Shown here in pieces: positions 4,773-55,335 of a DNA stretch of 64,000 nucleotides. Under the pieces are notes generated by a model. That model was not told the DNA's origin, ran no database searches, and saw only the letters and a list, made by a program, of their open reading frames with translations. The position numbers were made by a program, and so were the translations under genes. Within the stretch, counting starts at the first letter, position 1. Every line of letters begins with the position of its first letter. The stretch comes from Marsupella aquatica (lineage: Eukaryota; Plantae; Marchantiophyta), in assembly GCA_973895155.1 (NCBI GenBank), contig OZ316896.1, forward strand, positions 13,573,469 to 13,637,468, written 5' to 3'.

Positions 4773-5822
4773 TCAATAAATATCTGTGACACGCGGTGCC
4801 CTTGCGCCTTTCAATGCGGTATCATGAATGAAGTCGACAAGCAATCTAAAGCTGGGCGAAACCCATGTTTGGGGTTTACAGACATCAAAATGGTTGGCCG
4901 TATCATCTATGTGGTAATTGTCACAGTTGGTTCCTGCAGACCCTTCTCCGACGACTCTGCCACGGAATTCCTGCGTTGGAAACCAAAAGCAATCAACGAA
5001 ACGTCAAGTGAAGGTAGCTGGAACGGATAGTATTGCATGACTGAACTTGTCTGATTGTATTTGTAATTCAGGGAACAATTATGGGAACAACTAGCCATCA
5101 GAGCACGGTCAAGAATGCTAAACTTACCATAAATTGAGAGTCTAAGCCCTCCCCGATTTCGAAGGTTTGAATCCCTAGATCAGCTCGTGCTCTGTTAAAG
5201 TCATGGTCGACTCTGGCAGACTCCGGGCTTAGCATTTTCATAAAAAAGCTTTGAATCCCTGTATCAGCTCGTGCTCTGTGGATCTCTTGGCCGCTCAGCA
5301 CTTTCATTAACGCCTCGGCTACTCCAAAATGTGGTGTAGAGTAGTAGAACACACCCTTGAGGCTTTTCAGAAATCTCTCTATTTGGCTCAAATAGCGGAG
5401 ATCTAAATTACTGTTACGATTCAATTCCTCTCTCTTTCTAAGACCCTGCAAGACAAAATGTTTTATGGCCAGCCCGCCTAAGCTGTGCCCTACTAAGACC
5501 ACTGGACAATCTTTGCCCTCTTTGGCTCTAAAAGTGATTATATCCCGAATGAGATTTTCAATAACAAGATCGATGTTTATCTCTCCAGTCGGCATGATAG
5601 AAGAGTAATCAATTGTCGATATCCGCGCTTTGGGAAAGTTTTGGCTCAGCCAAACTGTGGGCCAAACTACAGTCTCACCTCGAGATAACCAAGCCTTGTA
5701 GCAATCCTCGGGGGAGTGTGACTGCTCGTGTGATCGCTGGAGACCATGAAAAATGCAACGTCAACCTCGGGGTCAACCTCGGGATCACTTGGACTGTAAA
5801 GTAGCTTGACGGAACCAACCAT
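4773..5822 (-). pseudogene. SERAC1/PGAP1/DUF676-like alpha/beta-hydrolase domain, two exons (5822-5128 and 4970-4773), frameshifted
   Basis: Hand translation: DVAF(F)HGL (needs +1 nt in the A-run 5749-5753), WPTVWLSQNFPKARISTIDY, nucleophile elbow VLVGHSLGG, YSTPHFG. Last exon EFRGRVVGEGSA...NHFDVCKP...DIY*. Canonical GTAAG and CAG splice sites, in phase. Confidence 0.85.
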
Positions 5823-6183
5823 CTGCAAAATAGCAAAGAGTTGAATTGTCGATCATCTCCTCATAGCTTGTTGAAATTGTTATGAATTGCGGCAATTTTC
5901 AAGACAAGAAAGAAGGGGGAGAGACGAAAAACAACAACGAAAACAAGCACCAGATAATCTCTCCTTACCGATTTGCGAGGCTCGGATAGTGGTCCCTGAC
6001 GATTTCCCTGGAGATCAAAACCAAGCACGATTACTGATTTGAAGTACTATGTTCTTAAATATAGTGGCCTTGTGGTCATCCGAAAGTCTCGGATTGAATT
6101 GAGTTGAACTGTCAATCACTCATGTCCTTATAGCGCATTTTGTGATCATAGTAATAGCTCATAGCGAACAACGTTAGACTCAC

Positions 6184-7283
6184 CTCATCAGCACTAAGTG
6201 ATGCGTCAATGTTCCCATTTCCACTCTCTTCTTCTTTACTGAGATTTTGTTCTCTGGACCGGTGACTCCAAAGACTTGCAGCCAGGCCTCGCAGATGCTC
6301 GTGCACCCAGACAGTTTCGTGTTTAAGACCGTCATCGCCTTGAACACTTGAAACCTTCACCATCGACGTCCTGATCAAGTTTTCCCACCCACTGTGGGCG
6401 TTGCTGTAGGAAACATTCCAAGTCGCAAACGCTCGGTCTAATGGCTCTCCGAAGAAAATTAACGCAGCATCAAGGAACATCTCCTGTTCCATTTGTTGAA
6501 GGCTATCAAAAGATATCCGCAACGACTCCCAAACCCTGTCTTTTGGAAGACTAGCCGCGCGTGCAGCTTGAAGTCGGTCAATGGTCTGCTCCCACATTGT
6601 AGCATCATCCGCTCTGCCCCGTAAATATTTGCCGAGGACTTCCAAAGTGAGTGGTAAACCATCACATTTCCGAACCACGGTTTTGACATTCTTTCTCAGT
6701 CTTTCTTCCCAGCCCGAGTAGTTGTCCAAGCGCGCGTGTTGGCAAAATAGTACCTCTGCCTGGTCAAACGAGAGGGGCTCTACCTCATAGACTCGGTAGT
6801 TTTGGAAAAAACGCATAATTCTGTGATCCCTAGTTGTGATGATCAAACGACTACCGTCTCCAAAGAACTCCAATTCAGGCAGAACCTCGAGTTGAGACTC
6901 AGATGTCACACCGTCCATCACAATCAATGCTTTCGTCCTCTCCAAGTCATGCCACGAGATTCTGCCTGTGTCAACTTTCTTCCCATTCCGATAAAATTTG
7001 TCCAGCAGAGAATTCTGCAATTTACTATGGATAGGAATGCCCTTCACATCTTCCAGAAAGCAGGTGTATTCAAACTCTATAGAAATGAGGTTAAACAGAT
7101 GCTTGGCAAGGGTGGTCTTGCCAATTCCCCCCATGCCTATAATTCCAAGAACCTCGCAATCTATCAACATCTCTTGTACGTATCTAGCACGACGCTGCAA
7201 TTCAACAGCATAGTGCGGGAGTCCGTGGCATTTGTGCACCTCCTGAACGATATCGGCTTGAATGTTAGTTCTATTCTATGTAC
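6184..7283 (-). pseudogene. NB-ARC (STAND ATPase) exon with a premature stop near its 5' end; no LRR seen
   Basis: P-loop GMGGIGKTTLAK, RNBS-A FEYTCFLEDV, kinase-2 LIVMDGV, RNBS-B GSRLIITTRD, CDGLPLTL, MHD-like VHE. Acceptor TTTGCAG at 7284, donor GTGAGT at 6183. TAG here where the homologous segment near 26160 has TGG. Confidence 0.88.
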
Positions 7284-7484: not shown

Positions 7485-8651
7485 CTAGGTCTGTAAAATA
7501 TAGTGGTCCGTGCCCATGACTAGACCTCACTATAGAATTCATTTAGAGTTAGCTGCGGCTTTGGGAGCTGGATGTAGCTAGTGGATACTGGTGATGAACT
7601 ACGGTCCGCGTAATTGATCAGTGCCCCAAACAAATTATAACAAGGTTCTAGTCACCTTAACCAGGTATGAACTGAAGGGTTTAAAGAAATGCGAACTGAT
7701 CCTAATTTACTAACCTGATCCTCGCTCGCCTTGTCGACCCGGAAGATTCTTAACAAGTCAGAAGCCTGATCAGACTTCACGATGCCATATTTTTCCAGAC
7801 TTTCGTTCGCCCCCAAAAGCGTTGTGTTTTCCGGGAACAAAAAGGATGTATCGATGTTGGGTTGTGCAGGCTTGACTAACGCAGACCACATTGCAGACCA
7901 CATGGCTGTATTTTCTGGCAAAAAGTCGGGAAAACCGTCCTTTCCCGTCGCTTGTAATGCCGGATGCAGCAGTACCTTTGACTGTGATTCCAGCTTTTCA
8001 TAGCACCCTTTGATTGGACAGATTTGATGCCCTGGTCGGGAGTGTATGCTTCCTTTCAATGTCACTGGAGACGCTGCTTCTACTACACACTTTAGCACGA
8101 ACTCTAGAAAAGAGTTCGCACTAGCTTCTGTAGCAGGAGCACGGGGTTCTCTAGAACGACCAAAACAGAGATACCACAGAACTCTTCCGATGTCGAGCGA
8201 TCTGAAAATCTCCAGTATTTCCCTTAGCTGGATAATTTTGAAGAGTCTTCGGAAGAGCCTAATCCAGATAATGAGACACAAGACACCACCGATGCTGGTA
8301 GTCGTTATCATGTTGACTTCCAGATGAGGAAAATGTGAGAGAGAGGCGAATCCAGCTGCTGCAAATCCTCCTAAGACAAATGCGATCGACCAAATGAGCA
8401 CCAAGGTAGTGCCTACCAGCCACTTTCGAATTCCCTCAACCGCGTCTTCAATGTATACATCAGCCACTGGTAGTGCAGCTGCTGCACCAGCCATCACAGC
8501 AGCTATGGCGAAGGAGAATGATAAGCTATTGAATCCCCAAAATATTTGAAGAATCATGTGTGTCTGATCTGAATCGTTGCCAAATCGTTGCCAAAAGGAG
8601 GTTGTTGTTGGAAATGAACCACACTCGAACGAAGATGGATACAGCCACAAA

Positions 8652-8722
8652 GGGCCTGTAGCTCAGTGGTAGAGCACTACGATGTACACGGGAGGTCCTA
8701 GGTTCAATTCCTAGCCGGTCCA
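8652..8722 (+). tRNA. tRNA-like sequence inside LTR1; degenerate anticodon arm, probably not a decoding tRNA
   Basis: Acceptor stem GGGCCTG/CCGGTCC-A (6 of 7 pairs including G:U), D stem GCTC/GAGC, T arm CTAGG-TTCAATT-CCTAG. A box TAGCTCAGTGG, B box GGTTCAATTCC. Confidence 0.6.
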
Positions 8723-8938
8723 TGCTGCTGAAAGTTCCAACATGGTATCAGAGCCAAAGAAAAGGAGTTTCCCTTGTAGCGAGTGCGGCTCAAGGGTGGG
8801 TGTTGGAAATGAACCACACTCGAACGAAGATGGATACCCCCACAAAGGGCCTGTAGCTCAGTGGTAGAGCAGAGTCCCCCTCAAGGGTGGGTGTTGGAAA
8901 TGAACCACACTCGAACGAAGATGGATACCCCCACAAAA

Positions 8939-9009
8939 GGGCCTGTAGCTCAGTGGTAGAGCACTACGATGTACACGGGAGGTCCTAGGTTCAATTCCTA
9001 GCCGGTCCA
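8939..9009 (+). tRNA. tRNA-like sequence inside LTR3, identical to 8652-8722
   Basis: Same 71-nt cloverleaf. Confidence 0.6.
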
Positions 9010-11869
9010 TGCTGTTGAAAGTTCCAACAGTTGTAACCATCCTTGAAACGTCACACTAGCTATTAGGGCCGCACCTACTAGGATCGCATTAGCAGCATCA
9101 AGAAAGATTTGACGGTCTCTGTATAATCTCTCAACACCATCCTTCACCTCTGGGATACACAACAAGAGGTCTTGGATATCCTTCTTTGTCTCTTGGTCCC
9201 GTATCTCATTTGCCAGTCTGTGAGGATGCAACCCCTCGGCGCTTTTCACAGTATATCGGATTGCTTTCGATTTGGCATCGAACACGAGAACTCTAACTAC
9301 TTCAGTCGCCTCTGTATAAACAGCCCAATGCAAGGGAGAGAATCCACAACAGTCCTTGGTGTTGACATTTATGGCCTGACTGGACAACATCTCTTTCACA
9401 GTGAGAACTCGAGCACTGTCGCTACAGGCAATCTGAAAGGCTGTCCGCTGGAGAATGTCCAAGTCATTGACATGCACGCTTAAAAAATCCCACTTCAGTA
9501 GAGTTTGCACCACTCGATGGTGATTCTCCAAAGCTGCATGATGCAGTGGGGTCATATGGAGACCGTCTCGAAGACTTTTTCGAAGGAAACTATCTACTGC
9601 TTCGGTTTGATCACGACCACTGTCGCCTGTATATCCTAATTTATCGTCTGATAGTATTTCAAGCACTAATTTGTAAGATTCAAGAAGAGAGCATAGCACT
9701 TCACTATCACCAAGTGCTGCAGCTAGATGAATAGCTGTCCAGCGGCAATTGTCTCTGTATTTATAGTCGAAAAAGTTAATTCTAGTAGAGAGATTGTGTT
9801 GGGAGACCACTTGTAGCAGACGACACCGGGTACTTTGAGAGATTGTAGCACCTTCATCATCGATTTCCCCATCGATCACTGCGTTGACTATCCTCATTAT
9901 TTTGTCCACGCGCAAGTGTTTGAGTGCAACAGCGGATCCCGCACCTGTCCCTGTCCTCTCTGAAGAGTCGGATTTTGATAGAGGTTTTTGATACTCCTTG
10001 AACATATCAATAATTTGACTTTGTTCAGATGCAGATGCCCACTCCAAGATCACGGTCCACAGACGGATGATAGCACTATTCGTGTTAGAGTTCATGCTAT
10101 CTCTCAAGGTCCTCAGCTGTTGTTGGCACTCCTTGAACTCATTAAGAACATGATTTTGTTCGGATGCAAGCGCCCACGCCAAGATCACAATCCACAGACG
10201 GATGATGGCATCATGCGTGTTAGAGTTGATGCTTTTCAACAAGGTCCTGAACTTTCCATCTTCTGTAGGATCCGTGGCCTCTCTCCCATCTTCTGCCCTG
10301 ATTTGCTCGAATTCTTTCAGGAACTCGACAACCCTCTCATACTCAAAAGGATTTGGCAATTTACTCCACAGAACAGCCCTTTTGATGCTGTCGAAATAAT
10401 CCTCAGAGCACCCTACGGAATACTCCTGATTATCAGCGTCCGGTGTCAGCTGATCCTCAGAACCCCTTCTACCCGAGTCACATACCCGGTACTTGTCGAG
10501 ACTGCTACGTATCCCTTCTCGAACCAGCTTTGCTTGAGTATGCTCATTGCTCAACAGCTGTACAATCTCTGCTCGACTACAAATGACCGCTGCGTGCAGA
10601 GCTCCAAACCTGTCACCTACCGGCTTCTTTGGATCAATCCAATGAAGGCTATCAAGGAAAAGTTCCCTCAGAATAATGTCAGGAAAATACGTTATGAGGC
10701 GAGATAACGCAAGAGCCCCAAAGTCCCTCATGTTGCGGTCAAACCCAGACTTGTGTTTGGACGGGCACGAAAGCAAAAAGTCTAGCCATGCGTAACGAGG
10801 ATGATGATCCGGATCTGCCATGAACTTCTCCAGCTCTCCAAAACTAACGTGCTCACACAGTAAGCGTTTCAACGTTGTCCTGAACTCTTCCGCTTTTCTT
10901 CTCTTTTCTCGCTGCATCCAGTTTTCTCCAGCTAAGGACACCATCTTCGCTCAGAAGCGCACACACAAGAATGCGACCCTTCGTTGCGTAGTAATGCCCC
11001 CGCCTTTGCTTCCTCGCAAAACATTCACCTCGTACACACTTATGCAGAATCAGAAGGGGCCATCGTCGTCCATTCTGCGCGGCTTTAACGTCTGTCCTGC
11101 TCAAAGCTGGTGCACCTGGGCAGCCCCCCATGCCAATCCATGTCAGGCGGGTACACTTTCAAAGTAATACCGTCGTATGCAGTGGCTGAGCTAGAACAAC
11201 CCATCGAAGCTCTGGAACATGCCCCGGAACATGCAAGCGATCACTGATAGACACTGGGTTGGAAGCTGCGAGGTGGAGCTTCAATCGATTCATGAGTTGG
11301 TCAAGAAGAAGACACTATCGGTGATGATCTGGGCAGGAAGGCCACAGCGAAGTAGACTGAAGCTTACGAAAAGTCTGGTCCTCATCGCCGCCTGGCCGCC
11401 GAGGTAAGATTGCCACAGAAACTCCTCAGAAACGTTTCTACCGAACATCTCGAGCTCCACTTCGGCTGGTGACTGGAACCAAACCGCGCAACATTCCTCT
11501 CCAATGTTAGACGACTTCGCCTGAATTGTGATCTCTTCTACGTTCCCCTCCCCGATTCTGCCAAATTGAGTGCAATAACAATAAGGTTACTGGTCACGAA
11601 TCCACGTTGAACTTGCGACACCTGCGCAGACTGAGCTTGTACGTGCGGGATGCATTCAATGACTCACTATGCGAGGAAAATGACTCACTATGCGAGGAAG
11701 TCAGTTTCCTGGTGCCCAAAACTCAATTCCCACCCACACTCATTTCGTACACAGACCTCGATTACAGAAGCGCGATCACATATTGTAATTATAGTCAAAG
11801 GAATAGGAATGACGAAAACGGTGAACACATTTGAGTGACGTGAGACTCTCGCACTTAAAAAAATAGGAT

Positions 11870-18358: not shown

Positions 18359-21300
18359 TTAACCAACAAGTGGGGTCACAGTTGGATTTGGACACTCAGG
18401 GGAAGTGCAACTGCAGCATTTGTTCAGGACACTTTCCTGGACATCGTCGAAATTCTCCTTGAAGAACTGGGTGGCTTGTGAATGCAACTCCTTGGCTCCG
18501 AACAGGCGGCCAAGCTTTAACATCTCCGCCACGTTTCCTGCATTCAGTCTTCTGCACAGCTCCTGCTCGCATAAATCTCTCAGGTAGTCGATCTCATACT
18601 TGTGTGCAACTTTCAGCACTTCCCCAGGTGACACTTCCTCCGTGAATTCCATATCTGCAGTGTAACAGCAGTTAATGACTGCCTGCATGATTGCGTAGGA
18701 TGTGTCCTGAACTTTAATAATGGGCTGTGCAACAACTGGGCGTGTAGTCTGCACAGTTTTAATCAAGTACGTTTTTTCCGTAGGCCCTGCTTGTGCGTTG
18801 AATTGTAATTTCACATTTGTAGCACGCTCAGATTCGCTTCTGTTGTTTTCATTCTCCGCTTCCCGGGATTGCAATATTGGTAGAGTGGTGGCCGGAGTCA
18901 GGGTAGATGCATGTTGCTCCAAAATTGTAGGTGTGATAGCTTCAGTATGAACGCTATCCACAGGTAGAGAAACCGACGATGGTGAAACTGTAATCGTTAA
19001 ATTAGATATTGCTCCAACAGACTGATGTTCTTGTCCACTATCCATAATTCTGATATCCGTCTTTTCTCGATCCTCCCTTGATTTCATGTCTGAAGAATCC
19101 GGTGAGCCGTCTTGTCCACTGTCCATTGTTCTGACATCCGTCTTTTCTTGATCCTCCCTTGATTTCATGTCTGAAGAATCCGGTGAGCCGCTAGTCACAG
19201 GTTGAGAGACCAACTCTGGTGAAATTGTAATCGTTAAATCAGGTATCGCTCCAACAAGCTGAGGTTCTTGCCCACTGTCCATAGTTCTGCCAGCCGTCCT
19301 TTCTCGATCCTCCCTTGCTTTCATGTATGAAGAAACTGTATAATTTAACAGTGAGCCGCTATTCACAGGTTGAGAGACCAACGGTGGTGAAACTATAATC
19401 GTTAAATTAGGTATCGCTCCGACAAGCTGAGGTTCTTGTCCACTGTCCACGGTTTTGACATCCGCCCTCTCTCGTTCCTCCCTCGATTTCATGTCTGAAG
19501 TATCTGCACATTCTAACAGTGAGCCGCCATTCACAGGTTGAGAGACCAACGGTTGTGAAACTGTAATCGTTAAATTCAGTGTCGCTCCAACAAGCTGAGG
19601 TTCTTGTCCATTGTCCGTATTTCTGACATCCGTGTTTTCTTGATCCTCCCTCGATTTCATGTCTGAAGAATCTGTACATTCTAAGAGTGAGCTGCTATTC
19701 ATAGGTGGAGAGACCAACAGTGGTGGAACTGTAATCGCTGAAATAGGTGTCGCTCCAGCAAGATTAGGTTCTTGTCCACTGTCCATAGTTCTGACATCCG
19801 TGTTTTCTCGATCCTCCCTCGATTTCATGTCTGAAGAATCTGTGCATTTTAACAAGGAGCCGCTATTCACAGGTGGAGAGACCAATGCTGGTGAAACTGT
19901 AATTATTAAATTAGGTGTCGCTCCAACTAGCTTGGGTTCTTGTCCACTGTCCGTATTTCTGGAATCCGTCTTTAGTCGATTCTCCCTTGATTTCATGTCT
20001 GCAAAATCTGTACATTTTAACAGTGAGCCAGCTAATCAGTAGACTTTGTCGGATCTGTGTATCCATTCTAAAGGTAGTGATAGGTACATATATGTCACAT
20101 GACTAAGCAATTATCACAAACTGGACGAGACCGATGAAAACTTGCCGCATCATGTAGGGTGATTATCTGAACTCTCCAATGTGACTGAGTGTTGAGATCG
20201 GTGCATGCTTGAATGATACTCTGGTTTGGCAATTCAGTAGGCAAATTGCCCATCCTAAATATACCAAAATGAGAATGAGGGAGTCCAGATTCAGGAGTTG
20301 AGTCCGCTCTCTCACGACAATGGGAAAGGATATATTGATGTCACACCAATGTACAACTCAAATTCTCTCCCTTATAACATTGATACTGAATTTCATTGCA
20401 TATGTATATGGACCTGTATATATCAGCTAAGCAACATAGACAGTTATTGATGACCAGTTACTTTCACATACACAGTCAACAATTCAATTTGATTTAAACG
20501 GTATACTGAGTAGCTACAGTAGTTCTGTGCAAAATTGAAAACCAACTGGAATGAAAGCATGAATGAATCACTACAAGCTATACATCAAGCCAAACAATGG
20601 CTGCCACAGACATGTGCAATATGCATCCTAGAATAATTGGAGAAAGCATTGTCAACCCTTTCATGAACCCTGTGGACTAGCTTGACGGGAGGGGGAGTGT
20701 GTCCGACCTTGCACCGATTGGGTAGTGGGAGTTTGTGAAGCTGCATTGTCAATGAGTAACTGCCCAGGGGCCACGATGAGCTGGCATCGGACTCCTCGAA
20801 GACCCATTTGTTCTAACATGGCGCTCGGGGCAATCCGAACGCTCACCACAGGGCTGATTTTCTCCATCCTCTTGCGCCATTTCTCTTTGAGTTTCTCTGG
20901 GGGAGCCTCTGCAAGTGGTGGCAATAATAGCGGTGGGGGTGGAGGAGGTGGAGGAGGAAGAGATGGAGGCAATAATTGTGGCGGGTCTGGTGGCGGTGGG
21001 GCTGGAGGAGAAGGGGGTGGGGCTGGAGGCAATAGTGGCGGAGCTGGGGCTGGAGCTGGGGCTGGAGCTGGGGCTGGAGGCAATAATAGTGGAGGGGCTG
21101 AAGGAGGTGGGGGTGGAGGCAATAATAGGGGAGGTGGTGGAGGTGGAGAAGGAAATGGAGGCACTAACAGTGGAGGGGCTGGAGGAGGAGGCGATTGGGT
21201 TGGAGGCAATGATGGTGAAGGGGCTGGAGGAGGTGGGGGTGGAGGGGATGGAGGAGGGGGTGGAGGCAATAATAGTGTAGGGGAAGGAGGGGGTGGAGGC

Positions 21301-22531
21301 GGTGGTGGAGGCAGGGGGATCGGCGCTATTTCGACCTGTTCAAAGGTCTCCTGCATTTTCTGCTGGAGCTGGAGCTCTGCTTCGAAGATCTTCTGAAACA
21401 CATTTGATTTGTAACCCTACTCTTCATCCAAGCCCCTTCAATGGCTCAGTTTTGGGTATCCCAACTTAATTCAAATAAAGTAAGAAACGAGCTATAATTT
21501 CAATGACAAGTGCAATTATTTGGCCCAGTTGCATTAGTAATATGTAATTTGGCAAGTACGCAATTGAATTTGTCTGATTGCTTACTTGCCCAAATTTGCA
21601 AGAGGCTTTTAAATGTCTTCTCTCTGTAATGGAAACAGCTTTGCTCCTGGAGACCTTACCTGAATACGAACTCAATGCTTGTCTCGAAACGGTTCTTTGA
21701 CAAATTCAAGGATAGCTCAGAATTCAGTACAGTAGACAGTTAATGTGTTTTTTAAGTTGCCTTTCGAGAGCGTCTCATGTGGACTGTATAATTATATGAT
21801 TTTACGTAGCTTCTATCAATTTTTCTTTCTAAATTAGTTGATCAAAATTCTAGTATTTGGCTTACCAGGATTAACTGATGGGCATAGATGTTCTGGCCCT
21901 GGACCACAAATGTCACGTCTCCTAATGGAGGTAAAGTCGACCCGAAGCCTGTTTCTGAAAGGGCAGCATGTGGAGGACGCCGTTTCAGAAACATCAGCCT
22001 ACGCTCGGCTCGCTCGTATGTTTCCTTCATCTTCTCCAGTTCTAACCTTAGCTTCATTCCGATAATGCTCTCCGCATCATCGATTGTCGACTGGGTTGTC
22101 GATTGGGTTTTTGACTTGCTCAGGTCTTCTATCTGTGTCCTCAAATCCATCTCGATTATAGACTCCGCACCGTCGTAAGCAAGCTGTTGAGCAGACAGTT
22201 TGACATCTGCAAGCTCGTGAGCTTCTCTCACATCTTCGGAATGCGAGGCGAGCCTCATTTCAAGGATGTTCAATTTCTTTCTCAGCCAGTTCGCTTCGTT
22301 TCTGGCTTCCGCAATGCCGTTCTGGTAGCGCTCGTGGCATCCTGCACATCCTGGCACCTCGTTGACCGTAATTCCCACCCAATGATGTGGGTTCTGATTG
22401 CGCAAGTGCTGCACGCAGTAGCTGCAATGCAATTTCTTTGGGCAGTCCGGGCACTTGACATACCCTTTCTCTGAATAATAATGCTTTGGGACCTTGTATG
22501 ACTTCAGCTTGATATCGACGAACCTCTCCAT
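18359..22531 (-). CDS. BTB/POZ domain protein, about 1015 aa; predicted exons 22531-21866, 21416-20708, 20031-18359
   Basis: Exon 1 ends GDVTFVVQGQNIYAHQLIL|GTAAG and exon 2 begins GYKSNVFQKIF. Exon 3 ends PIIKVQDTSYAIMQAVINCCYT...AHKYEIDYLRDLCEQEL...NVAEMLKLGRLFGAKELHSQATQFFKENF. Summed length of 3048 nt is in frame. The exon 2 donor position is less certain. Confidence 0.8.
18950..20030 (-). repeat. Coding tandem repeat, 168 nt (56 aa) period, 7 MKSRE-type units, the last ones shortened
   Basis: GATTTCATGT-like anchor at 19989, 19821, 19653, 19485, 19317, 19161 and 19080. Confidence 0.92.
20910..21320 (-). repeat. Low-complexity coding poly-proline tract
   Basis: (GGA/GGT/GGC)n on +; units LLLPPPPPPS and PAPAPA on -. 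Confidence 0.9.
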
Positions 22532-23273
22532 GATCTCAACAATTCAATTGGAAGTAAAGTCGAGTCACGCCCGTAGACATCCGACATCTGACGATTTCTG
22601 TTTTGTCTCTCATTTAGTGCCACGGACTTAACCGGACGGCAGTTTACAAAATTTGTTGTGTGCTAGTACGTAGACAGTGATCGTCGATCTAATTGCAATT
22701 CACATGTAGTTCTTTTCCGGTCCTTAGAAATCGAAGCCCCCCTTAGAAATTGAAGCTCGGGTCTTCAAACTGATAGACTGAAGCGACTTTGTAGCAATCT
22801 CTATCCTATCGTTTGTCATAGCAGCGAATTTTCTGAAGGTTTGGTAGGTTTGTAAGTACTTGAACAAACTCTTCCGCCTTGTATTCTCAATATACGCGTA
22901 AAGAAGAAGCGTGGGACCTTTCGCACATCCAGTCTGATGATATGATCATGTAGTATTCTCCAGGTTTTCCCAGCGGCCATGTTTCAAATTTTAAAAGTGT
23001 GTCTAAGAGACAAAGGACTTTCCAAGTGGATCATAATGTCTAGATTTCGAACTTGAATGGAGTCATTCAATTAGTCTCAATCGCAGCAAGCCAAGATCGT
23101 ACCAAAATCTCCCAACCTTCACTCCAATCGATCACTTAATCTTTATTGTCGCAGATTCAGAAAGTTACATAACTTTGAGCAAATGTCGTTACGTACGAAA
23201 ACGAAAAACGAAAAACGAAAAAAAAATGAAATGGAATAAACTACCTCGATCTGAGCAAATGACGCCGTGGTTT

Positions 23274-26385: not shown

Positions 26386-26508
26386 CGCAAGGCTGGGAAA
26401 GAGGTCCGCCCGAATTGATCATTGCCCAAAACAACTCGTAAAAAGTCCTAGTCACCTTAACCAGTTATATATCAACTGTAGGTTTAAAGAGACTGATGCG
26501 AACTGATC

Positions 26509-29435
26509 CTAATTTACTACCCTGATCTTGGCTCGCTTGTCGACCCGGAAGAATCGTAACAAGTCAGAGGCCTGATCAGACTTGACGAGGCCATATTCTG
26601 CCAGACTTTCGTTCGCCTCCGAAAGCGTTGTGTTTTCCGGGAACAAAAAGGATGTTTCAATTCTGCCTTGAGCAGGTTCGATTAACGCAGACCACATTGC
26701 AAACCACGTGGCTCTATTTTCTGGCAAAAACTTGGGAACACCGTCCTGGGCACAGTCCTCTTCCGTCGCTTGTAATGCCGGATGCAGCACTACTCTTAAC
26801 TCCAATTCCAGTTCTTGATACCACTCTTTGATTGGATCCGCTGGTCGGATCCCCTGACGCTGATTTGATCCCCTTATGCTGACGTGATCCCCTGATTTGA
26901 TCCCCTGATCTGCTTCTTCTGACGCTGCTTTTTTAATAGTCTCTAACACGAACGTTAGAAAAGGGTTTTCACTAGCTTCTGTAGCAGGAGCACGGGGTTC
27001 TCTAGTAAGACCACAACAGAGATGCCACAGAAATCTTCGGATGTCGAGCGATCTGAAAATGTCCAGTATTTTCCTTAGCTGGATAATTTTGAAGAGTCTT
27101 TGGAAGAACCTAATCCAGATAATGAGACACAAGAGACCACCGATGCTGGTAGTGGTTATCATGTTGACTTCCAGATGGGGAAAATGTGAGAGAGAGCCAA
27201 ATCCAGCTGCTGCAAATCCTCCTAAGACAAATGCGATCGACCAAATGAACAACAAGGTAGTGCCTACCAGCCACTTTCGAATTCCCTCAACCGCGTCTTC
27301 AATGTATACATCAGCCACTGGTAGTGCAGCTGCTGCACCGGCCATCACAGAAGCTATGGCGAAGGAGAATGATAAGCTATTGAATCCCCAAAATATTTGA
27401 AGAATCAGGTGTGTCTGATCTGAATCGTTGCCAAAAGGAGGTTGTAACCATCCTTGAAATGGCACACTAGCTATTAGGGCCGCACCTACTAGGATCGCAT
27501 TAGCAGCATCAAGAAAGATTTGACGGTCTCTGTATAATCTCTCAACACCATCCTTCACTTCTGGGATACACAACAAGAGGTTTTGGATATCCTTCTTTGT
27601 CTCTTGGTCCCTTATCTCATTTGCCAGTCTGTGAGGATGCAGCCCCTCGGCATTCTTGAGAGTATATCGGATTTTGTTCGAGTTGTCATGGAACACGAGA
27701 ACTCTAATGACTTCACTCGCCCCTGCATAAACAGCCCAATGCAAGGGAGAGAATCCACAATTGTCTATGGTGTTGACATTTGTGGCGTCACTTGACAACA
27801 TAACTCTCACAGTGAGAGCTCGAGCACTGTTGCTACAGGCAATCTGAAAGGCTGTCCGATGGAAAATGTCCAAGACATTGACATGCGGGCTGAAGAAATC
27901 CCACCTCAGTAGAGTTTGTGCCACTCGATGGTGATTCCCCAAGGCTGCATGATGCAGTGGGGTCATACGAAGACCGTCTCGCAGACTTTTTCGAAGGAAA
28001 CTATCTACTGCTTCGGGTTGATGACCACCAGCTGAGTCGCCATATCTTACTTTATCGTCTGATAGCATTTCAAGCACTAAATTGTAAGATTCAAGAAGAG
28101 AGTCTAGCACCTCAGTATCACCAAGAGCTGCAGCTAGATGAATGACTGTCCAGCGGCAACTGCCTCTGTATTTATAGTAAGAGAAGTCAATTTTACTAGA
28201 AAGATTGTTCAGGGAGATCACTTGTACCAGACGACGCCGGGCACTTTGAGAGATTGTAGCACCTTCATCATTCATCGCTCCAGCGATCACTGCGTCGACT
28301 ATCGTCATGATTTTGTTCATGCGCAACTGTTTGAGTGCAACACCGGAACCCACACCTGTCACTGTCCACTTTGATGAGTCGGATTCTGATAGAGGTTTTT
28401 GATACTCTTCGAACATATCCATAATATGGCTTTGTTCAGATGCAGACGCACCTGTTCTTGTCCTCTTTGATAAGTTTGATTCTGATAGAGGTTTTGGATA
28501 CTCCTTGAACACATCCATAATATGGCTTTGTTCAGATGCAGACGCCCACTTCAAGATCACGATGCACAGACAATTGATAGCACTCTTCGTGTTAGAGTTG
28601 ATCCTATCTCTCAAGGTCCTCAGCTGTTCTTGGCACTCCTTGAACTCATTAAGAACATGATTTTGTTCGGATGCAACGCCAAGATCACAATCCACAGACG
28701 GATGATGGCATCATTCGTGTTAGACTTGATGCGTTTTAAAAAGGTTCTCAGCTTTCCATCCTCTGTAGGATCAGTGGTCTCTCCCCCACCTTCTACCCTG
28801 ATTTGTTCGAATTCTTTTAGGAACTTGACAACCGTCTTGTACTCACGAGGATTCGGCAATTTACTCCACAGAACAACTCTTTTGATGCTGTCGAAGTAAT
28901 CCTCAGAGCACCCTACGGAATAATCCTGATTATCAGCGTCCGGTGTCAGCTGATCCTCAGAACCCCCTCTACCCGAGTCACATACCCGGTACTTGTCGAG
29001 ACTGCTACGTATCCCTTCTCGAACCAGCGTTGCTTGAGTACGCTCATGGCTCAACAGCTGTACAATCTCCGCTCGACTACAAATGACGGCTGCGTGCAGA
29101 GCTCCAAACCTGTCACCTACCGGCTTCTTTGTATCAAGGCTATCAAGGAAGAGCTCCCTCAGAATAATGTCAGGAAAATACGTTATGAGGCGAGATAACG
29201 CAAGAGTCCCGAAGTCCTTCATGTTGGGGTCAAACCCAGACTTGTGTTTGGAAGGGCACGAAAGCAAAAAGTCTAGCCATGCGTAACGAGGATGATGACC
29301 CGGATCTGCCATGAACTTCTCCAGCTCTCCAAAACTAACCTGCTCACACAGTAAGCGTTTCAACTTTGTCCGGAACACTATTGCTTCTTCTCTCTTTTCT
29401 CGCTGCATCCAGTTTTCTCCAACTAAGGACACCAT
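26509..29435 (-). pseudogene. Ankyrin-repeat plus PGG transmembrane gene, copy B; frameshifted by a 7-nt deletion
   Basis: ORFs 28620-29435 and 26509-28695 are colinear with copy A. A has GATGCAA-GCGCCCA-CGCCAAG and B has GATGCAA-CGCCAAG at 28676/28677. The WLQPPFGNDSD motif is uninterrupted. Confidence 0.88.
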
Positions 29436-29983
29436 CTTCGCTCAGATGCGCACACACAAGAATGCAACGTTTCGTTGCGTAGTAATTCCCCCGCCTTTGG
29501 TTCCTTGCAAAGCATTCACCTCGTCCACACCATGAACTTCTCCAGCTCTCCAAAACTAACCTGCTCACACAGTAAGCGTTTCAACTTTGTCCGGAACACT
29601 GTTGCTTCTTCTCTCTTTTCTCGCTGCATCCAGTTTTCTCCAACTAAGGACACCATCTTCGCTCAGATGCGCACACACAAGAATGCAACGCTTCCTTGCG
29701 TAGTAATTCCCCCGCCTTTGGTTCCTTGCAAAGCATTCACCTCGTCCACTCCATGAACTACTCCAGCTCTCCAAAACTAACCTGCTCACACAGTAAGTGT
29801 GTAAGCGTTTCAAATTTGTCCTGAACACTGTTGCTTCTTCCCTCTTTTCTCGCTGCATCCAGTTTTCTCCAGCTAATTAAGGACACCATCTTCGCTCAGA
29901 TGCGCACACACAAGAATGCAACCCTTCCTTGCGCAGTAATTCCCCCGCCTTAGGTTCCTCGCAAAGCATTGACCTCGTCCACA
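29310..29983. repeat. Tandem triplication of about 221 bp covering the start codon of copy B
   Basis: CATGAACT.CTCCAGCTCTCCAAAACTAACC at 29310, 29531 and 29752; single copy in A. Confidence 0.92.
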
Positions 29984-30879
29984 CCTGTGCAGAATCAAAT
30001 GGGGCCATCGTCGTTCATTCTTCCCGGCTTTAACATTTCTCTCCTCAAAGCTGGTTCACCTGGGCAGCCCCCCATGCCAATCCATGTCAGGCAGCTACAA
30101 TTTCATGCAGAGCACAAGCTAGAAGACCCCATCGAAGACCTGAAACAAGCTAGTGATCACTTACAGACCTGGATTGGAAGCTACAAAGTGGGAACTCCGA
30201 TCAATTCATGAGCTGGTGAAGAAGAAGACAGTATGTATCGGTGTTTCATCTGGGCAGGAATGCCCACAGCGAAGTAGAGAAGCTTAAGAAAACTCTGGTC
30301 TTCATCGCCGCCAGGCCGCGAAGGTAAGATTGCCACAGAGATTCCTCAGAAACGCTTCAATCTACCGACTGGAACCAAAGCGCGGAGCATTCCTCTCCCA
30401 CGTTCAATAGAGTACTTCAATTCGCCGGACTCGTGTTCTCTTCTACGTTCTGTCCATCTCCCTCCCCGAGTCGAGTCCCCCAAAGTGAGTGCAAAAGCGT
30501 TGAATCAATAGGCCGTCTGAAACATAGAATTAGAATTCGTGAGCGCAATACTGGTCATGAATCGACGGTGAAGTTGCAGCACCTGGGCAGACTGGGCTTG
30601 GGCTGGATGATGCATTTAATGGAGGAAGTCAGGTTCATCATGCCCAAAACTCAATTTCACAGACTGCACGCTGGGGGATCACATATTATATTATAGTGGT
30701 TAGAATAGGATAGGATAGAATAGGAATCTTACTAACCTTACTAAGCACTATTGAAACCTACTAGTAGTATTCAGGGCCAGCGAAGCCTCTGGACCAGCCT
30801 TTTTTGTAGTGGCGAAAATTCGCCAAATTCCAACTCCCCAAAAAATCCTTAAAAAATACGCTGCTCTGGACTCTCCCTC

Positions 30880-49562: not shown

Positions 49563-52500
49563 CTTTTTTTTGCCTCCAAAGAACCAAATGAATTCCATTC
49601 ACATAGCCAACATACAAAAAGGGGGGGCCCACAAAGGGCACCAACCCAAGGGACCGGAGGTCAGCTTGCAGAAACCGGTGGGGCCGGGACCAGGGAGAAA
49701 GCTGAGCCCATAAGGGGCAACTAAACAAGTAATTTAGAAACTACACTCGGAGCAGCACACTCCTAAAGACCGGCCAGTGACCAGGTTCCGGCGGGGTTCC
49801 TGCCAGTGGATCCGTGCGGGAGCAGAGCTCCAAACAGTCAGTCTGTAGTGCAACTTCCAAACCTGAACAACCAAAGTGACTCATGGTGGTCGTGGAGGTA
49901 CTGGTGGGACTTGAAGGGATTCCTCATGGAGTTCCCAAAGGCCAGCCCAGGTGCCATAGTGAAACGCCATCTCGTTGTGCGCCTCCCTTGAAGTGATCTT
50001 TCCAGCCTGGATACGAACTTTAATCCGACCCCAATCACGACGTAGGTAGATTCCGAGTCGATGCCAAGATTTTCTGATAACTCTTGTGGGTGGGGTCGGG
50101 TGTGTTCAATGAAGTGGGTACCTCTGTCCTTCCACAAGTTCCAGCAGATAATAGCCCTTAAGGTATGCCACAGCTTCATGGGGATGTCCCAATGCTCCGG
50201 TAGGGGCTCCCCGACAAAAATGTGGACTGGCTGTAGGTGAATAAGATTTCCCCTAGAACAGGCACATAGCTGTAGCACAAAATGAACCCACCTCCAGACT
50301 ATCTGCGACTGATTGCAGCTCCAAATGCAGTGAACGATATCTTCCTGTTGGTTAGTGCCACACCGGGTGCACCAGGTGGCCGGATTGGTTGATGGTAGTC
50401 TCGGGAACCTCCAGTGCTGTGTTGCAGGTATATCCTGTAAATCAGTTGCCACAAGTAGCAATTCTCGCTAGCAGCTCGGAAAGGTAGCCATGTACAGCCC
50501 AGAGCGTCCGTGGGTGGGGCTGCCAATTCAATCTGATGGCCCATTTGTGAATCGCTTTGTGGAGTGTTCCATTGAGTGGCGCCTGAATTTCATGTAAGTG
50601 GGCGGTGTTAGTTTCCAGAAAGGAGAGTCTGTCCTTCCATTCGTGCTGCAACAGAGGTGCCAACAATCCATGGGGCCTTCCAACGCGGTGCATGTTGTTG
50701 GAAGCTCGGTTGCCGTTCCTGGTCAACACCCAGTGCAAGATGACATCTGCCGGAGGAGCAATGGTATCCAATTTGCGAAGAGTGTCATTGACCACCCTAA
50801 AGGTACGTCTGGGGTGAGCAATGTCATTGAACCACTGCCATTGGGACGTAATGCGGTGTCTGGGTACCTGGTATTCCCAGATGTAAAGAGTCCCACATGG
50901 CAGTCGGGCCTCCATGAAGAGAGGGACGAGTTCCCCAGGATTCCTGTGTAGCTCAGGCACAGTACGAAGGTTAGCAATTAACTTACGATACGCAGAGGAG
51001 CAATTTGGGGGAAGCATAGCGTTAGGTCCATCCTCCCAGTTGATGAATTGCCCCCTCCCATCCAAGACGTCTCTCATGGCAACAAAGCCAGCCCTCCTGA
51101 TATTCCTCTGTGGATTGCTCCGACATTTGGCTTGATTTGCGTGGATGTGGTTAATGTGCGGTTGCCAAAGGGGAAGGTCACTCCATCCTTCCAGATGCGC
51201 AGGAGATGTAGCTCTCAGATTTTTCTTGATGACGTTCCACCCTGTGCATACATTGGTCCACACTTTGGACCCATTCAGTGGAAGAGTGTGGCACTGCGAA
51301 AAGACCCAGGTATAATCTTCCACTCCCCATTTCCGCTTAGAAAGCTGCTTGATCTCATGCTGGAGAATTCGACATAGGGGGTGATCTCCTCCGGACAGTG
51401 CCCAAATAATGAAGTTCCCGACCAGTGCTCTGAATTGTGCTGCAACTGAAATGAGTCCAAGGCCCCCTTGGCCTTTTGGCCTTGTGATCGTGGCGAAATC
51501 GACCCTCGATCGAGCTCTGGTATTCTGCCCTGCCCAGACGAATGTTGTGATCTTTCGTTGAAGTGCAACCAGGGTACTATGTTGGCCAGCCCAAATAGTC
51601 AACATAAACCACAAGGTGCTCATGACGAGGTGATTTGCCACTGTGACCCGGGCGATGAGCGACCCCGAGCTCTTCCGGACCCTATCTAATCTGGATTCAA
51701 CCTTTTTGGTCAGGGAGGAGACCATTTGGACTTCAAAGATGTTCTGAGCAATCGGAATGCCTAATAGCTTCATGGTTGTGGCATCGTCTTCCCACTGCCA
51801 AGGGAGTCTCCTAAATTCAATGGGTATTCTGCGAGGAGAAATGAACGCTGCCTTTGTTTTCTCCCATACACACACCAGCCCAGATGCCACCCCGAAAAGT
51901 TGAAGGAGTCGCTTGCAACTTTCCACATTTTCCATGTAAGCTCTGATCAGCATGGCGAGGTCGTCTGCGTAAAGATTGTGTACATTATGTACTGCTACGG
52001 TTTGGATGTTGACGCCTTGGATAGTGCCCCTGTCTACTGCCCAATTGATCATCCAGTTGAGAGCATTGATAGCGATAAGGAATAGAAGAGGAGACAGAGG
52101 GCAGCCTTGTCTAACCGATCTGGCAAGACCAAAGGGTGCCGCCATACGGCCGTTGAGGAGTACAGCAGAGGATGCCGATGCATGAGTGGCTCTCAGGAAA
52201 TCCATAAGCAGTCCATCAAAACCAGCTTTCTCCATTATGGACATCAAAAAGGGCCATTCAAGTTTGTCGAACGCCTTGGCGACATCCAATTTCATCAGAA
52301 TGTAGTCCAATCCGGATGTTTCAGCGTGATGTAACATTTTATTGAGCAGCATCAAAGAGTGGTGTATGTTTCAACCTGGTAGAAAAGCAAATTGTTGGGG
52401 CGAAATGAATCTCTGCAGGACTGGGATCAATCTCAGTTGGAAAGCTTTCGCCCCGATCTTGTGAACCACATTTAGCAGGGTAATGGGTCGTTTGTTGGTT

Positions 52501-53510
52501 AAGTAGCGCTGGTCATCTTTCTTGCGGAGAAGGACAATGAAACCTCGAATGTATTCAAAGGAAAAGTACCCCTCGGCCAGACCTTGATTAAGCGCTCTGA
52601 GAAGGGAGTGTCCCACCGTGTTCCATTGCGCCACAAAGAATTCCACAGGGACCCCATCCGGACCGGGGCAAGTATGGCTTGCCAAAGCAACGGCTGCCCT
52701 GCTAAGCTCATCCAACGGTAATGGCTCATTTAGTGAATCCTGCTCCTCCGTGGTGATGCATTTGTGTTGAAGCTCCAGGACCCGTGAAATCGGCTCCCAC
52801 TGCGCCCCCTCCGATTGGCCCAATATTTCTTTGAAAAAATTGGTTGTTGTGGCCGCCATCCCCTCCCAGTCGCTGATTAAACGATTCTCCTTGGTAAACA
52901 ATTGAGTGATCTCATTTTTCATGGCCATTCCTTTAAATGTTCTGAAGAAGAGTCGGGAGCATTTGTCTCCCTCTCCAATCCACCGAGACTGAAGGATGTA
53001 ATCCATCCATTGGACCTTCTCTGCTTCGAATTCATGAAGCAACGCCTCAGCCGCCTGCAGTGCAGCTTGATGCGTAGTGTCCTGTGGTTCCCGTTCAAGT
53101 TGTAGTTGTGCGTGAGTAAGCGAGGCACGAAGTGTTACCTCCCTCAGGCGTCTTTCCAAGGCCTTCCTTTTCCCCCAACTCCTGTCAAATTTGCGTGTTT
53201 TTGCAAGGCATCGGATTAGTGTCTTGGAGGCCGTGAGCCCTTGCCTGTTGCACAATTCCTCCTCCCATTTCCACATGCGGGAAATGCGTTCCTGATAATC
53301 GCTTCGAGTCTGGTGACTGACGTTCATACGATGCTGGGAGTAGCGCTTAACAGGCACTAGTGGGGTAATCCTGGCCAGGACCGGAGCATGGTCAGATAGG
53401 GGGATTTCGGGGATGATGGTGGATGAAATGTCAAAAGCATCTTTAACAGCCCCCTTGGAAGCGTAGATTCTATCGAGCCTCCGGAGCACCCAACCTCCTA
53501 ACGTAGACGC
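49563..53510 (-). mobile_element. 5'-truncated L1-clade LINE (ORF2: endonuclease end, RT, zf-RVT)
   Basis: RRLDRIY and LSDHAPV (APE end); CPGPDG, RPITLLN, KLDVAKAFD, VRQGCPLSP, LYADD (RT); WCTRC..EDIVHCIWSC. A8 tail at 49564-49571. 17-bp TSD CATGGTATAAACTTCTT at 49546-49562 and 53511-53527. In-frame TGA at 52371 and frameshifts near 50430-50490. Confidence 0.95.
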
Positions 53511-55335
53511 CATGGTATAAACTTCTTGATGCAGTGTTGTCTTGGTGAACATAATGAGAAACTGGTTTGCCATTCAATCCAGATTCGGTACTGGCTAGAA
53601 TGTCCATGGGCCTTGAGCTTGAGAATGAGTGAAACGAGACAAACTATATTAAACTTCCAAGACGAGAACGTCACGAGCAAGTTCTCCATGTATATGCCTC
53701 CTGACCTGTAACTCTGAATCGAGCTATGGATTTATCAATCCTCTTCTCTCCTCCCGATGAGGAGAAGGATGGGAGGAGAATGATAAGGTTGATGCGGAGA
53801 GGACAAACAAATATTAGGTTGACAAAGAGAGGGACAGAAGAAAAAAGGGTGACTGGAGAGAACTTCCCTTCTCATTTGGTACTTACTCTGAAATAAATGC
53901 TTGGATGCCTAAACCCTAAAGGAGGCAAGGTCACCGACTCCCTTTCGGAAACTAGACCGGACATCGGGGCCGTCTTTGGTATTTCGAAATCCGGGAGGTT
54001 CTTGAATGACGCCAGATCTTATCAGGTAACGTTCTAAAGTTCAAAAGTTCACAAAAGATTGGAGGCTTACATCACCTAGCCAGGAAACTACGCTAATTTG
54101 GAAGTAAATGATTTGGACTTTTTCACTACAATACTCTATCAGATCAGGTCACGAGCCTCTCACTGTTTCATGGGTGCAGCATGAAAAGTTCAACGAATGC
54201 ACAGTGAAGCGACAGTTGATCAACATCATCATGGAGGAGAACCCAAAGCTCACAGAGAACGACGCTATTCGGCAGGCAGAACAATATGCACAATTAAGTC
54301 TACACGAAACCACAAAATCAATTCTGGGCTGTGCGTGGCCAAACCATGAACTCAAAAGGATCATGCTCACACTTCCACAGTTGGACATTAGTCTTTGTGG
54401 ACGGTCTTCAGAGCAAAGAGTGGACCATGTGAAAACTAATGGATCCAATTCCGTATTTGACAAGTTGAAATCGGTGAGATTGTTTAGCTGCTAAGGGAGC
54501 TTTCCAGAGAGTGCTTTTAGAGAATCATCTCGCGATCCGTCCATTAAGACCAACTATTTTGTGCCACCTCTATCAATTGCGAAGGATATTTTTTGGGTAT
54601 TGGAACTGGGTGCGCAAATTTCCTCGTCACCTTAGAATCTTTGGATGGGATAGCAATTGTACTAGCTGGATAGTGCCTTCATATTCAATATCGAAAGACA
54701 GTTATGTAATTTAATTTGTTGAAGTTTCTACTGAGGCCCCTCCTGTCTTTGTCTCAATGTCCACGGGTACGTTGATGCCCGCGCTGAAGATTTGAAATGG
54801 GTTTCGACATGACTTAAAATCACCATTAAGGATTAAACATCAGTATTTTTAGACAGATGTGATTATAAGATGCATTCCTAAACGCAAAATGCTGACAATT
54901 GAGGTTATTCATATTTCAGAAAACAACCATTTGATAGGCTTCAAAAATGCAAGAATGTGCTCCAGACTATTATCCTACAAAGGGATTCATCAACACAATG
55001 ACCTCCTCTCTGTGAGCTATAGCTCTAATGCGCTAAATGTCCAAAAGAATGACAGCCCTAGGGCAGTGGAAAATCAATAGCATGCAATTGGCAGCTTCTG
55101 GCATCCACATTTTTTACGTACCAACCTATGATTGTGGAGTGGGCTGGCAAGCAACAACAATCGATACTACTCTAGTTCAGATACCAAAAGAATGACTTCG
55201 TAGAACATTAGAAACCATGACCTTTGTTGTCTCCAATTCCAATTCTCCAAGCTGTTGGCCGGCCTAAAAGTTCTCAAAATATAATGTACAGAAAACGTCG
55301 GAGCTATGCCTCTTGAGGGAGATGGGTTCGTCCTA

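What the first reader, a model, noticed from the sequence alone, without database searches (positions are those of the whole stretch)
8601..9034. Miniature LTR retrotransposon whose LTRs are built around a tRNA cloverleaf (internal Pol III promoter)
Seen: a 424-bp element with 137/138-bp LTRs, 8-bp terminal inverted ends, an iMet PBS, a PPT and a 5-bp TSD. Only 58 bp separate LTR1 from the next LTR, and the empty site is in paralogue B. About half of each LTR is a 71-nt tRNA-like sequence with intact D and T arms and A/B boxes but a decayed anticodon stem. The few LTR1/LTR3 differences fall outside the tRNA part. Known: Cassandra TRIMs carry 5S-derived Pol III promoters, and from memory tRNA-containing TRIMs (Helenus) have been reported, so the class may not be new but this family may be. 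Inference: a SINE-like promoter combined with LTR-type mobilisation in trans, probably by a Copia partner.
Basis: partly seen in the sequence, partly recalled or inferred. Interest (0 to 1): 0.85.

Follow-up and report, generated by a model that had tools for sequence, protein, structure and literature searches.

The report
Liverwort Helenus-type tRNA-bearing mini-retrotransposon
A tiny gene-less jumping element with a tRNA look-alike in each end repeat has landed in a liverwort gene; it belongs to a kind described in 2024 (Helenus), is likely copied by the tRNA polymerase and likely moved by another retrotransposon's enzymes, and carries a predicted hairpin at its 3' end that many known Helenus families seem to share.

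Summary
In detail: 5-bp target duplication, 137/138-bp LTRs with 8-bp inverted ends, primer site, purine tract, a 71-nt tRNA-like unit per LTR (Rfam tRNA 46.3 bits) and an empty paralogous site. The host is a liverwort. Public runs show a multi-copy family with the same ends in four coded organisms, a few pieces in a fifth. The usual element is about 332 bp; this copy has an extra 91-bp duplication and interrupts an ankyrin-PGG gene. It meets the published definition of Helenus/TRIMp3 (Kojima 2024), whose only listed plant family is from Selaginella, so the class is known, and this scan has met it before in other genomes. New here: a bryophyte host (none found in nine literature searches), and a 13-bp stem that puts the purine tract and LTR start in a loop. 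By eye the same stem, with different sequence, stands in 23 of 24 rust-fungus families and in the Selaginella family; the paper's text does not mention it. Pol III transcription, the Copia partner and the stem's function are untested.

The parts
8601..8605 (+). left target-site duplication GTTGT
   Evidence: single copy in the paralogue
8606..8742 (+). 5' LTR, 137 bp, 8-bp inverted ends; first 46 bp are the inferred U3
   Evidence: other copies end at 8606 and 9029 (table 7)
8652..8722 (+). tRNA-like unit: box A in D arm (8659-8670), box B in T arm (8701-8711), decayed anticodon arm
8743..8754 (+). primer-binding site of initiator-Met type, directly after the LTR
   Evidence: sequence; only copy in the window; Met identity from established knowledge of plant LTR elements; 11 of 12 letters as in Helenus-1_SMo
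8743..8800 (+). 58-bp internal region, non-coding
8780..8792 (+). left arm of the stem that encloses the purine tract (pairs with 8810-8822, 11 of 13)
8792..8800 (+). polypurine tract (one T at 8797 in this copy)
   Evidence: A in most other copies
8801..8871 (+). partial middle LTR (first 71 bp, ends with the D arm); holds the right arm of the stem at 8810-8822
8872..8891 (+). duplicated last 20 bp of the internal region with second purine tract; 3 changes break the stem (7 of 12)
8892..9029 (+). 3' LTR, 138 bp, tRNA-like unit at 8939-9009
9030..9034 (+). right target-site duplication GTTGT
8574..8595 (+). 11-bp tandem duplication in host DNA, ending 5 bp before the left target-site duplication
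   Evidence: absent in the paralogue and in the empty-site joint
7652..10950 (-). host ankyrin-repeat/PGG gene (paralogue A), interrupted in its coding sequence by the element in antisense orientation
   Evidence: the paralogue reads through this site (ORF 26509-28710, minus strand)
27430..27450 (+). empty site in paralogue B

Best explanation
This is one copy of a multi-copy, gene-less miniature LTR retrotransposon of a liverwort, of the Helenus (TRIMp3) type, which is likely transcribed by RNA polymerase III from the tRNA-like boxes in its 5' LTR and likely reverse-transcribed and inserted by the proteins of a Copia element. Shown: LTRs, primer site, purine tract, 5-bp target duplication, empty site, many insertions with other flanks, tRNA-like unit with both boxes. 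Inferred: transcription starts at or just before 8652; with no run of four T in the element it would read through primer site, purine tract and 3' LTR into the flank (first T4 at 9243 here), so most of the LTR from the tRNA on would serve as the R repeat; host initiator Met tRNA primes the minus strand, the purine tract the plus strand, and a helper integrase makes the 5-bp duplication. The tRNA-like unit is a promoter rather than a working tRNA or a home-made primer. A stem between the end of the internal region and the start of U3 is predicted to hold the purine tract in a loop and may be a signal for the helper. The 91-bp duplication is particular to this copy and probably arose after insertion.
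For: Anatomy and empty site. tRNA likeness. Family: 296, 198, 442 and 427 contigs of runs X1-X4 lie on an 1051-bp stretch, nearly all on the element; contigs leave the element at its exact ends into unlike DNA (X1: 12 before 8606, 20 behind 9029, agreement 0.44 and 0.39; X12: 9 behind 9029; X21: 10). None of the 40 best-supported variant rows shown (of 74) falls in a tRNA-like part; all lie in U3, U5 or the internal region; one contig of organism C is identical over 8937-9032 but unlike just upstream. Definition and plant precedent: PMC10886601. No self-priming: longest exact complement of the primer site in the LTR is 5 nt, outside the tRNA end. Stem: 11 of 13 pairs, reached by 27 of 5000 shuffles and 51 of 5000 random window segments; changes in other copies at 8779, 8786 and 8789 each turn a mismatch into a pair. 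Timing of the duplication: LTR2 and LTR3 share a 2-base change that LTR1 lacks.
Against: No transcript, start site or Pol III evidence was seen. No autonomous element with these ends was found; no genome is held and the window holds only LINE-type reverse transcriptases. An iMet primer site and a 5-bp duplication also fit plant Gypsy lineages (own knowledge), so Copia is about 75%. The tRNA-like unit folds no better than shuffles (z -0.29) and its lowest-energy fold is not a full cloverleaf. The stem in this copy is not unusual as plus-strand RNA (z -0.42, 61 of 200 shuffles as good); only the minus-strand DNA fold stands out (z -3.12, 0 of 200), and the mismatch at 8789 is fixed in run X1 (0 of 1553 depth changed). 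34 of 74 variant rows were not shown. No listed contig spans the whole copy or its inner junction.
Confidence: 0.85

Rival explanations
1. An ordinary Pol II-driven or passively transcribed TRIM that once captured a tRNA or SINE head, which is now kept for its fold (for example as a packaging or processing signal) and not as a promoter.
For: Acceptor and T stems stay paired, with paired changes against Helenus-1_SMo at one T-stem and one acceptor pair (by eye), which a promoter alone does not need. No Pol III terminator lies in the element.
Against: Both boxes are intact and match the motifs given for Helenus; the 46-bp U3 is the most variable part across organisms and shows no evident TATA-like box (sequence); the related Cassandra is reported to be Pol III-transcribed.
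Confidence: 0.1
2. The element spreads a functional tRNA (ARAGORN calls it Tyr-GTA) or makes its own tRNA-like primer.
For: ARAGORN call; Rfam score above the gathering threshold; three of four stems intact.
Against: Anticodon stem has 2 Watson-Crick pairs of 5, the arm is one base short, no U before the anticodon, no T run after the unit; at most 5 nt of the primer site is complemented in the LTR; the Helenus paper reaches the same view for its families.
Confidence: 0.03
3. The family is real but the three-LTR shape of this copy (91-bp duplication, C-run changes) is an assembly or read error.
For: No listed contig of seven runs carries the 8871/8872 junction or the C-run variants; the changes create homopolymers.
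Against: Short tandem duplications are frequent in this locus (11, 38, 97, 135, about 220 bp); the runs may be other individuals and the tool filters records; three-LTR TRIMs are common in plants. This rival concerns only the duplication, not the class.
Confidence: 0.25

Closest known systems
Helenus-1_SMo of Selaginella moellendorffii (Helenus/TRIMp3; Kojima 2024, PMC10886601)
   Same: TRIM of 325 bp (120-bp LTR, 85-bp internal) against about 332 bp here; 5-bp target duplication; same LTR end letters TTCCAACA; Met-type primer site (11 of 12); by eye 49 of 56 letters of the tRNA-like unit identical outside the anticodon arm; decayed anticodon arm; a stem enclosing the purine tract (12 perfect pairs, extending to about 19).
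   Different: Liverwort host; U3, anticodon arm, U5 middle, internal region and stem sequence not alike by eye; Selaginella family has a T4 run after the tRNA-like unit, this one has none.
Fungal Helenus (Helenus-1_AmAr of Amylostereum; rust-fungus families)
   Same: 5-bp duplication, Copia-like ends, tRNA-like unit; AmAr matches 27 of 32 letters in the 3' half of the unit (by eye); stem around the purine tract.
   Different: Longer LTRs, most with T runs after the unit; many prime from an anticodon loop rather than a tRNA 3' end.
Cassandra (5S-bearing plant TRIM)
   Same: Pol III promoter inside the LTRs, Met primer site, purine tract, tandem forms with extra LTRs.
   Different: 5S-derived, 563-968 bp, reported from angiosperms and ferns; no 5S match here.
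tRNA-derived SINEs
   Same: tRNA-like head with boxes A and B.
   Different: SINEs have no LTRs, primer site or purine tract and are moved by LINEs; here the ends are TG...CA with a fixed 5-bp duplication.

Membership tests
Helenus / TRIMp3 | Short (<1 kb) non-coding element with two LTRs | tested here: met
   424 bp here, about 332 bp in a normal copy; no ORF of 120 aa belongs to it
Helenus / TRIMp3 | Primer-binding site after the 5' LTR and purine tract before the 3' LTR | tested here: met
   8743-8754 and 8792-8800; host tRNA itself not available for pairing
Helenus / TRIMp3 | tRNA-derived sequence in the LTR with box A (TRGCY, YGG) and box B (GGTTC) | tested here: met
   motifs as given
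Helenus / TRIMp3 | 5-bp target-site duplication (plant and fungal families) | tested here: met
   GTTGT twice, once in the empty paralogue; only this one insertion could be checked on both sides
Helenus / TRIMp3 | Interspersed multi-copy family | tested here: met
   many contigs leave the element at its exact ends into unlike DNA in runs of organisms A, B, E, K
Helenus / TRIMp3 | tRNA-like unit not complementary to the primer site, unlikely to be a working tRNA | tested here: met
Helenus / TRIMp3 | Transcription by RNA polymerase III | not testable with these tools
   no reads of RNA; also unproven for published Helenus
Helenus / TRIMp3 | Mobilisation by an autonomous Copia element | not testable with these tools
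   no genome held; no Copia in the window
Family Helenus-1_SMo itself | Sequence identity along LTR and internal region | tested here: not met
   by eye only: likeness limited to LTR ends, tRNA-like unit, primer site and purine tract; lengths differ
Any other of the published Helenus families | Sequence match to a Data S1 consensus | tested here: inconclusive
   motif searches of the supplement: this primer-site 12-mer 0 hits, D-arm 19-mer 2, LTR-end 8-mer 3; parts 1, 4, 5 of 11 read; motifs broken by line ends would be missed; Repbase and Dfam not available
Cassandra / Ajax | 5S rRNA-derived sequence in the LTR | tested here: not met
   no 5S match at E<=1
Genuine tRNA gene | Intact anticodon stem and loop, T-run terminator | tested here: not met

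The most novel reading that the evidence does not exclude
Copia-dependent Helenus elements of fungi, Selaginella and liverworts share a so far unremarked cis-acting stem, formed only at the 3' end of the transcript by pairing of the internal region with U3, that displays the purine tract and the integrase end in a loop and is the signal by which helper proteins recognise a Pol III RNA; plant Helenus would then be an old land-plant lineage (or one exchanged with basidiomycete fungi) rather than a Selaginella oddity.
Probability: 0.3. Interest if true: 0.68.

Novelty: new member of a known kind. Interest (0 to 1): 0.4.

Why it matters
As a class it is known. It extends Helenus to bryophytes, doubling the plant examples, in hosts where copies are still inserting into genes (here an ankyrin-PGG gene in a cluster with an NB-ARC gene). 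Such families inflate tRNA gene counts: ARAGORN calls both LTRs tRNA-Tyr. The Helenus paper states that it is not known how a TRIM's dependence on its helper is maintained when LTRs share no sequence; a conserved stem around the purine tract offers a concrete, testable candidate. The lack of a terminator and the intact acceptor and T stems also raise the question of how the RNA escapes RNase P and RNase Z.

Tried and rejected
No genome held for copy counting or a helper search. No RNA holder listed. Exact junction pattern in metagenome contigs: 0 hits. Degenerate box A + box B + primer-site pattern: 10 metagenome hits, all 10 bacterial tRNA genes without LTRs; 0 in viral contigs. Attempt to collect Copia ends from viral contigs to see whether the stem is general: 7 loci, none with reverse-transcriptase motifs, primer site or LTRs, so the question stays open. 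Earlier-findings search by sequence gave only an unrelated bacterial tRNA repeat; by place nothing; 'hairpin/polypurine' and 'liverwort' gave no finding with all words. Rejected: self-priming; that the partial middle LTR marks the RNA 3' end through a template jump during reverse transcription (LTR1 would then equal LTR3, but LTR2 and LTR3 share a change LTR1 lacks); in-frame rescue of the host gene by a solo LTR (the LTR has stops in the gene's frame). Summed depths (100-fold or more over the flank) were not used as copy numbers. Kalendar 2008 on Cassandra is not held; it is cited only through later papers. Horizontal transfer between fungi and early plants was considered from the AmAr/SMo likeness (31 of 32 letters in the 3' half, by eye) but oyster families share the same D arm, so convergence on a strong promoter is not excluded.
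Full report
1. Observation. GTTGT stands at 8601-8605 and 9030-9034. LTR1 (8606-8742, 137 bp) and LTR3 (8892-9029, 138 bp) differ by three events: a 2-base change, one extra A in a run, one C/T. Both have 8-bp inverted ends. The 58 bp after LTR1 open with a Met-type primer site, the only one in the window, and end in a purine tract. The tRNA-like units (8652-8722, 8939-9009) score 46.3 bits against Rfam tRNA and are the only two ARAGORN calls in 64 kb. D and T stems are perfect, the acceptor stem has one mismatch, the anticodon stem is broken. The paralogous gene 18.8 kb away has the empty site with one GTTGT.

2. Host and site. The window is from a liverwort: a rhodanese-domain exon has its only hit in Calypogeia fissa (77% identity; one hit among longer proteins only), and the best named hits of the interrupted gene's paralogue are from Riccia, Calypogeia and Marchantia. 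The element sits antisense in the coding sequence of an ankyrin-repeat/PGG gene; the frame stops inside LTR3 and 440 extra bases (element, duplication, an 11-bp host duplication) shift the rest. The paralogue reads through.

3. Family. No genome is held, so public runs were used: 22 were listed and 7 laid. In organisms A (X1, X2), B (X3, X4), E (X12) and K (X21), 125-442 contigs per run lie on the stretch, and many leave it exactly at 8606 or 9029 into mutually unlike DNA (X1: 12 and 20 contigs; X3: 7 and 22; X4: 5 and 19; X12: 9 and X21: 10 on the right end). Organism C (X10) gave 11 pieces. A 2483-bp contig of X1 runs LTR, internal region, LTR without the duplication (record 1 and joint 8871 to 8977), so the normal element is about 332 bp. 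The empty-site joint (8584 to 9030) is in all four runs. Its depth equals about both paralogues together in organism B (172 against 101+88; 76 against 38+54) but only the paralogue-B-like contig in organism A (14.9 against 15.4; 53.9 against 52.4). I infer that the insertion is absent in B and probably present in A, so younger than their split (flank 6 differences in 188 bp); this rests on depth arithmetic and no spanning contig is listed. Of 74 variant rows, the 40 best supported were shown; none lies in a tRNA-like part (3 are misalignments at the duplication, and the same LTR position can appear up to three times). One contig of organism C is identical over 8937-9032 and unlike in U3.

4. 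The 91-bp duplication. 8781-8871 and 8872-8963 are tandem copies. LTR2 and LTR3 share the 2-base change that LTR1 lacks, which fits duplication after insertion and not a jump during reverse transcription. No listed contig shows the junction, so an assembly error stays possible (about 0.25). Three-LTR TRIMs are common (PMC4717578, passages; PMC7215508, passages), though those repeat the whole internal region.

5. Mechanism. Shown: structure, integrase-type footprint, multi-copy spread, both promoter boxes, no coding capacity, no self-priming match (5 nt), no T4 run on the sense strand before 9243. Inferred from established LTR biology and from PMC10886601: Pol III starts near 8652, reads through the element, host iMet tRNA primes, a helper (Copia about 75%; fungal Helenus are tied to Copia, but Met priming and 5-bp duplications also occur in plant Gypsy, own knowledge) supplies reverse transcriptase and integrase. 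An open point is how an RNA with two near-cloverleaves avoids RNase P and Z cleavage.

6. A stem around the purine tract. 8780-8792 pairs with 8810-8822 (11 of 13), leaving the purine tract and the first 9 LTR bases as a 17-nt loop. This level is reached by 27 of 5000 shuffles and 51 of 5000 random window segments. As plus-strand RNA the fold is unremarkable (z -0.42); as minus-strand DNA it is the best fold (z -3.12), because both mismatches are C-A. In other copies 8786 is T (736 of 1526 depth in X1, all in X12, 322 of 355 in X21), 8789 is T in X21 (all) but hardly elsewhere (0 in X1, 67 of 1650 in X12), and 8779 is T in X21 (247 of 281); each change makes a pair. By eye in Data S1 of PMC10886601: Helenus-1_SMo has 12 perfect pairs of different sequence at the same place; of the 24 rust-fungus families with both parts printed in part 1, 23 show a stem of 7 bp or more (at most one or two mismatches or a bulge, or two stacked helices) and one is borderline (8 of 10), with paired changes between LTR-1_PGr and LTR-1_PSt and between Helenus-3_PGr and LTR-2_PSt; CroRib-8 (15 of 15), CroRib-9 (16 of 16), CCin-1 (12 of 13) (the rest of that part not tallied), AmAr and the zebrafish LTR-11_DR group (13 of 13) also show it. 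It is not evident in the coelacanth, sturgeon and oyster families. These counts are uncomputed, without a chance control, and the families are related, so they are fewer independent cases. G-U pairs in SMo, AmAr and LTR-2_PSt point to the plus-strand RNA. The paper's main text has no 'hairpin' or 'inverted'; figures are not held. Searches for such a stem listed no paper on it; hairpins described for bivalve TRIMs and GalEa elements lie inside the internal region (PMC6934838, passages) and the Cassandra 'super-hairpin' pairs LTR with LTR. Whether ordinary Copia elements have the stem could not be tested.

7. Comparison with what is known. PMC10886601 (text parts 1-5 of 6; supplement parts 1, 4, 5 of 11 and searches) defines Helenus as TRIMs with a tRNA-like LTR sequence and names Selaginella as the only plant host; 'liverwort' and 'Marchantia' do not occur. 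All testable defining features are met; Pol III use is unproven there as here. The family is not Helenus-1_SMo, though by eye 49 of 56 letters of the tRNA-like unit outside the anticodon arm agree, with paired changes in the T and acceptor stems. Nine searches listed no report of a bryophyte Helenus; PMC13570524 (passages) only cites the class, PMC10853983 (passages) does not mention bryophytes, PMC4717578 found no TRIM in Physcomitrella, and one liverwort preprint (10.1101/2025.01.16.633329, passage) has none. Repbase, Dfam, subscription journals and preprint supplements were not seen and may hold this family. This scan has 37 earlier findings on Helenus-type elements in at least 16 genomes, none with 'liverwort'; they are unchecked notes, and those on diatoms prompted the self-priming test.

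8. Verdict. Real, well-supported, a new member of a known kind. Interest 0.40: the class is published; the added value is the host lineage, evidence of recent insertion into a gene, and a conserved 3' stem that offers a handle on how such elements recruit their helpers.

Noticed in passing
window 8574-8595: 11-bp tandem duplication of host DNA ending 5 bp left of the target-site duplication, absent from the paralogue and from the empty-site contigs; may be a repair scar of the insertion or unrelated.
   Followed up: partly
window 7600-11600 and 26400-30500 (minus strand): Two paralogous ankyrin-repeat/PGG genes (84-91% identical) with several 97-220-bp internal tandem duplications; A is broken by the element; B's upstream coding part appears split over two ORFs (28620-29441, 26509-28710).
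   Followed up: partly
window 5098-7275 (minus strand): NB-ARC exon (Pfam E 4e-26) followed by a DUF676 alpha/beta-hydrolase exon, next to the ankyrin-PGG gene: looks like a liverwort immune-gene cluster.
   Followed up: no
window 18359-20035 and 21842-22543 (minus strand): BTB/POZ gene with about seven 156-168-bp tandem coding repeats, and a proline-rich ORF at 20661-21416.
   Followed up: no
window 49838-53573 and 61307-63905 (minus strand): Two LINE-type elements (RVT_1, zf-RVT), the first with long but broken ORFs.
   Followed up: no
PMC10886601 Data S1, Helenus-1_AmAr and Helenus-1_SMo: The fungal and the Selaginella tRNA-like units agree at 31 of 32 letters in their 3' half (by eye); common origin, transfer or convergence on a strong promoter.
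   Followed up: partly
L003-L010, about 1200-1330: Eight bacterial tRNA-Arg(CCG) genes followed by the same roughly 60-bp trailer with a short repeated motif but different DNA beyond; looks like a conserved attachment-site remnant of integrative elements.
   Followed up: no
run X10 (organism C), window 8937-9032: A contig identical to the window over the tRNA-like unit and U5 but with a different U3, in a run with only 11 pieces: low-copy relative, recombinant subfamily or contamination.
   Followed up: no
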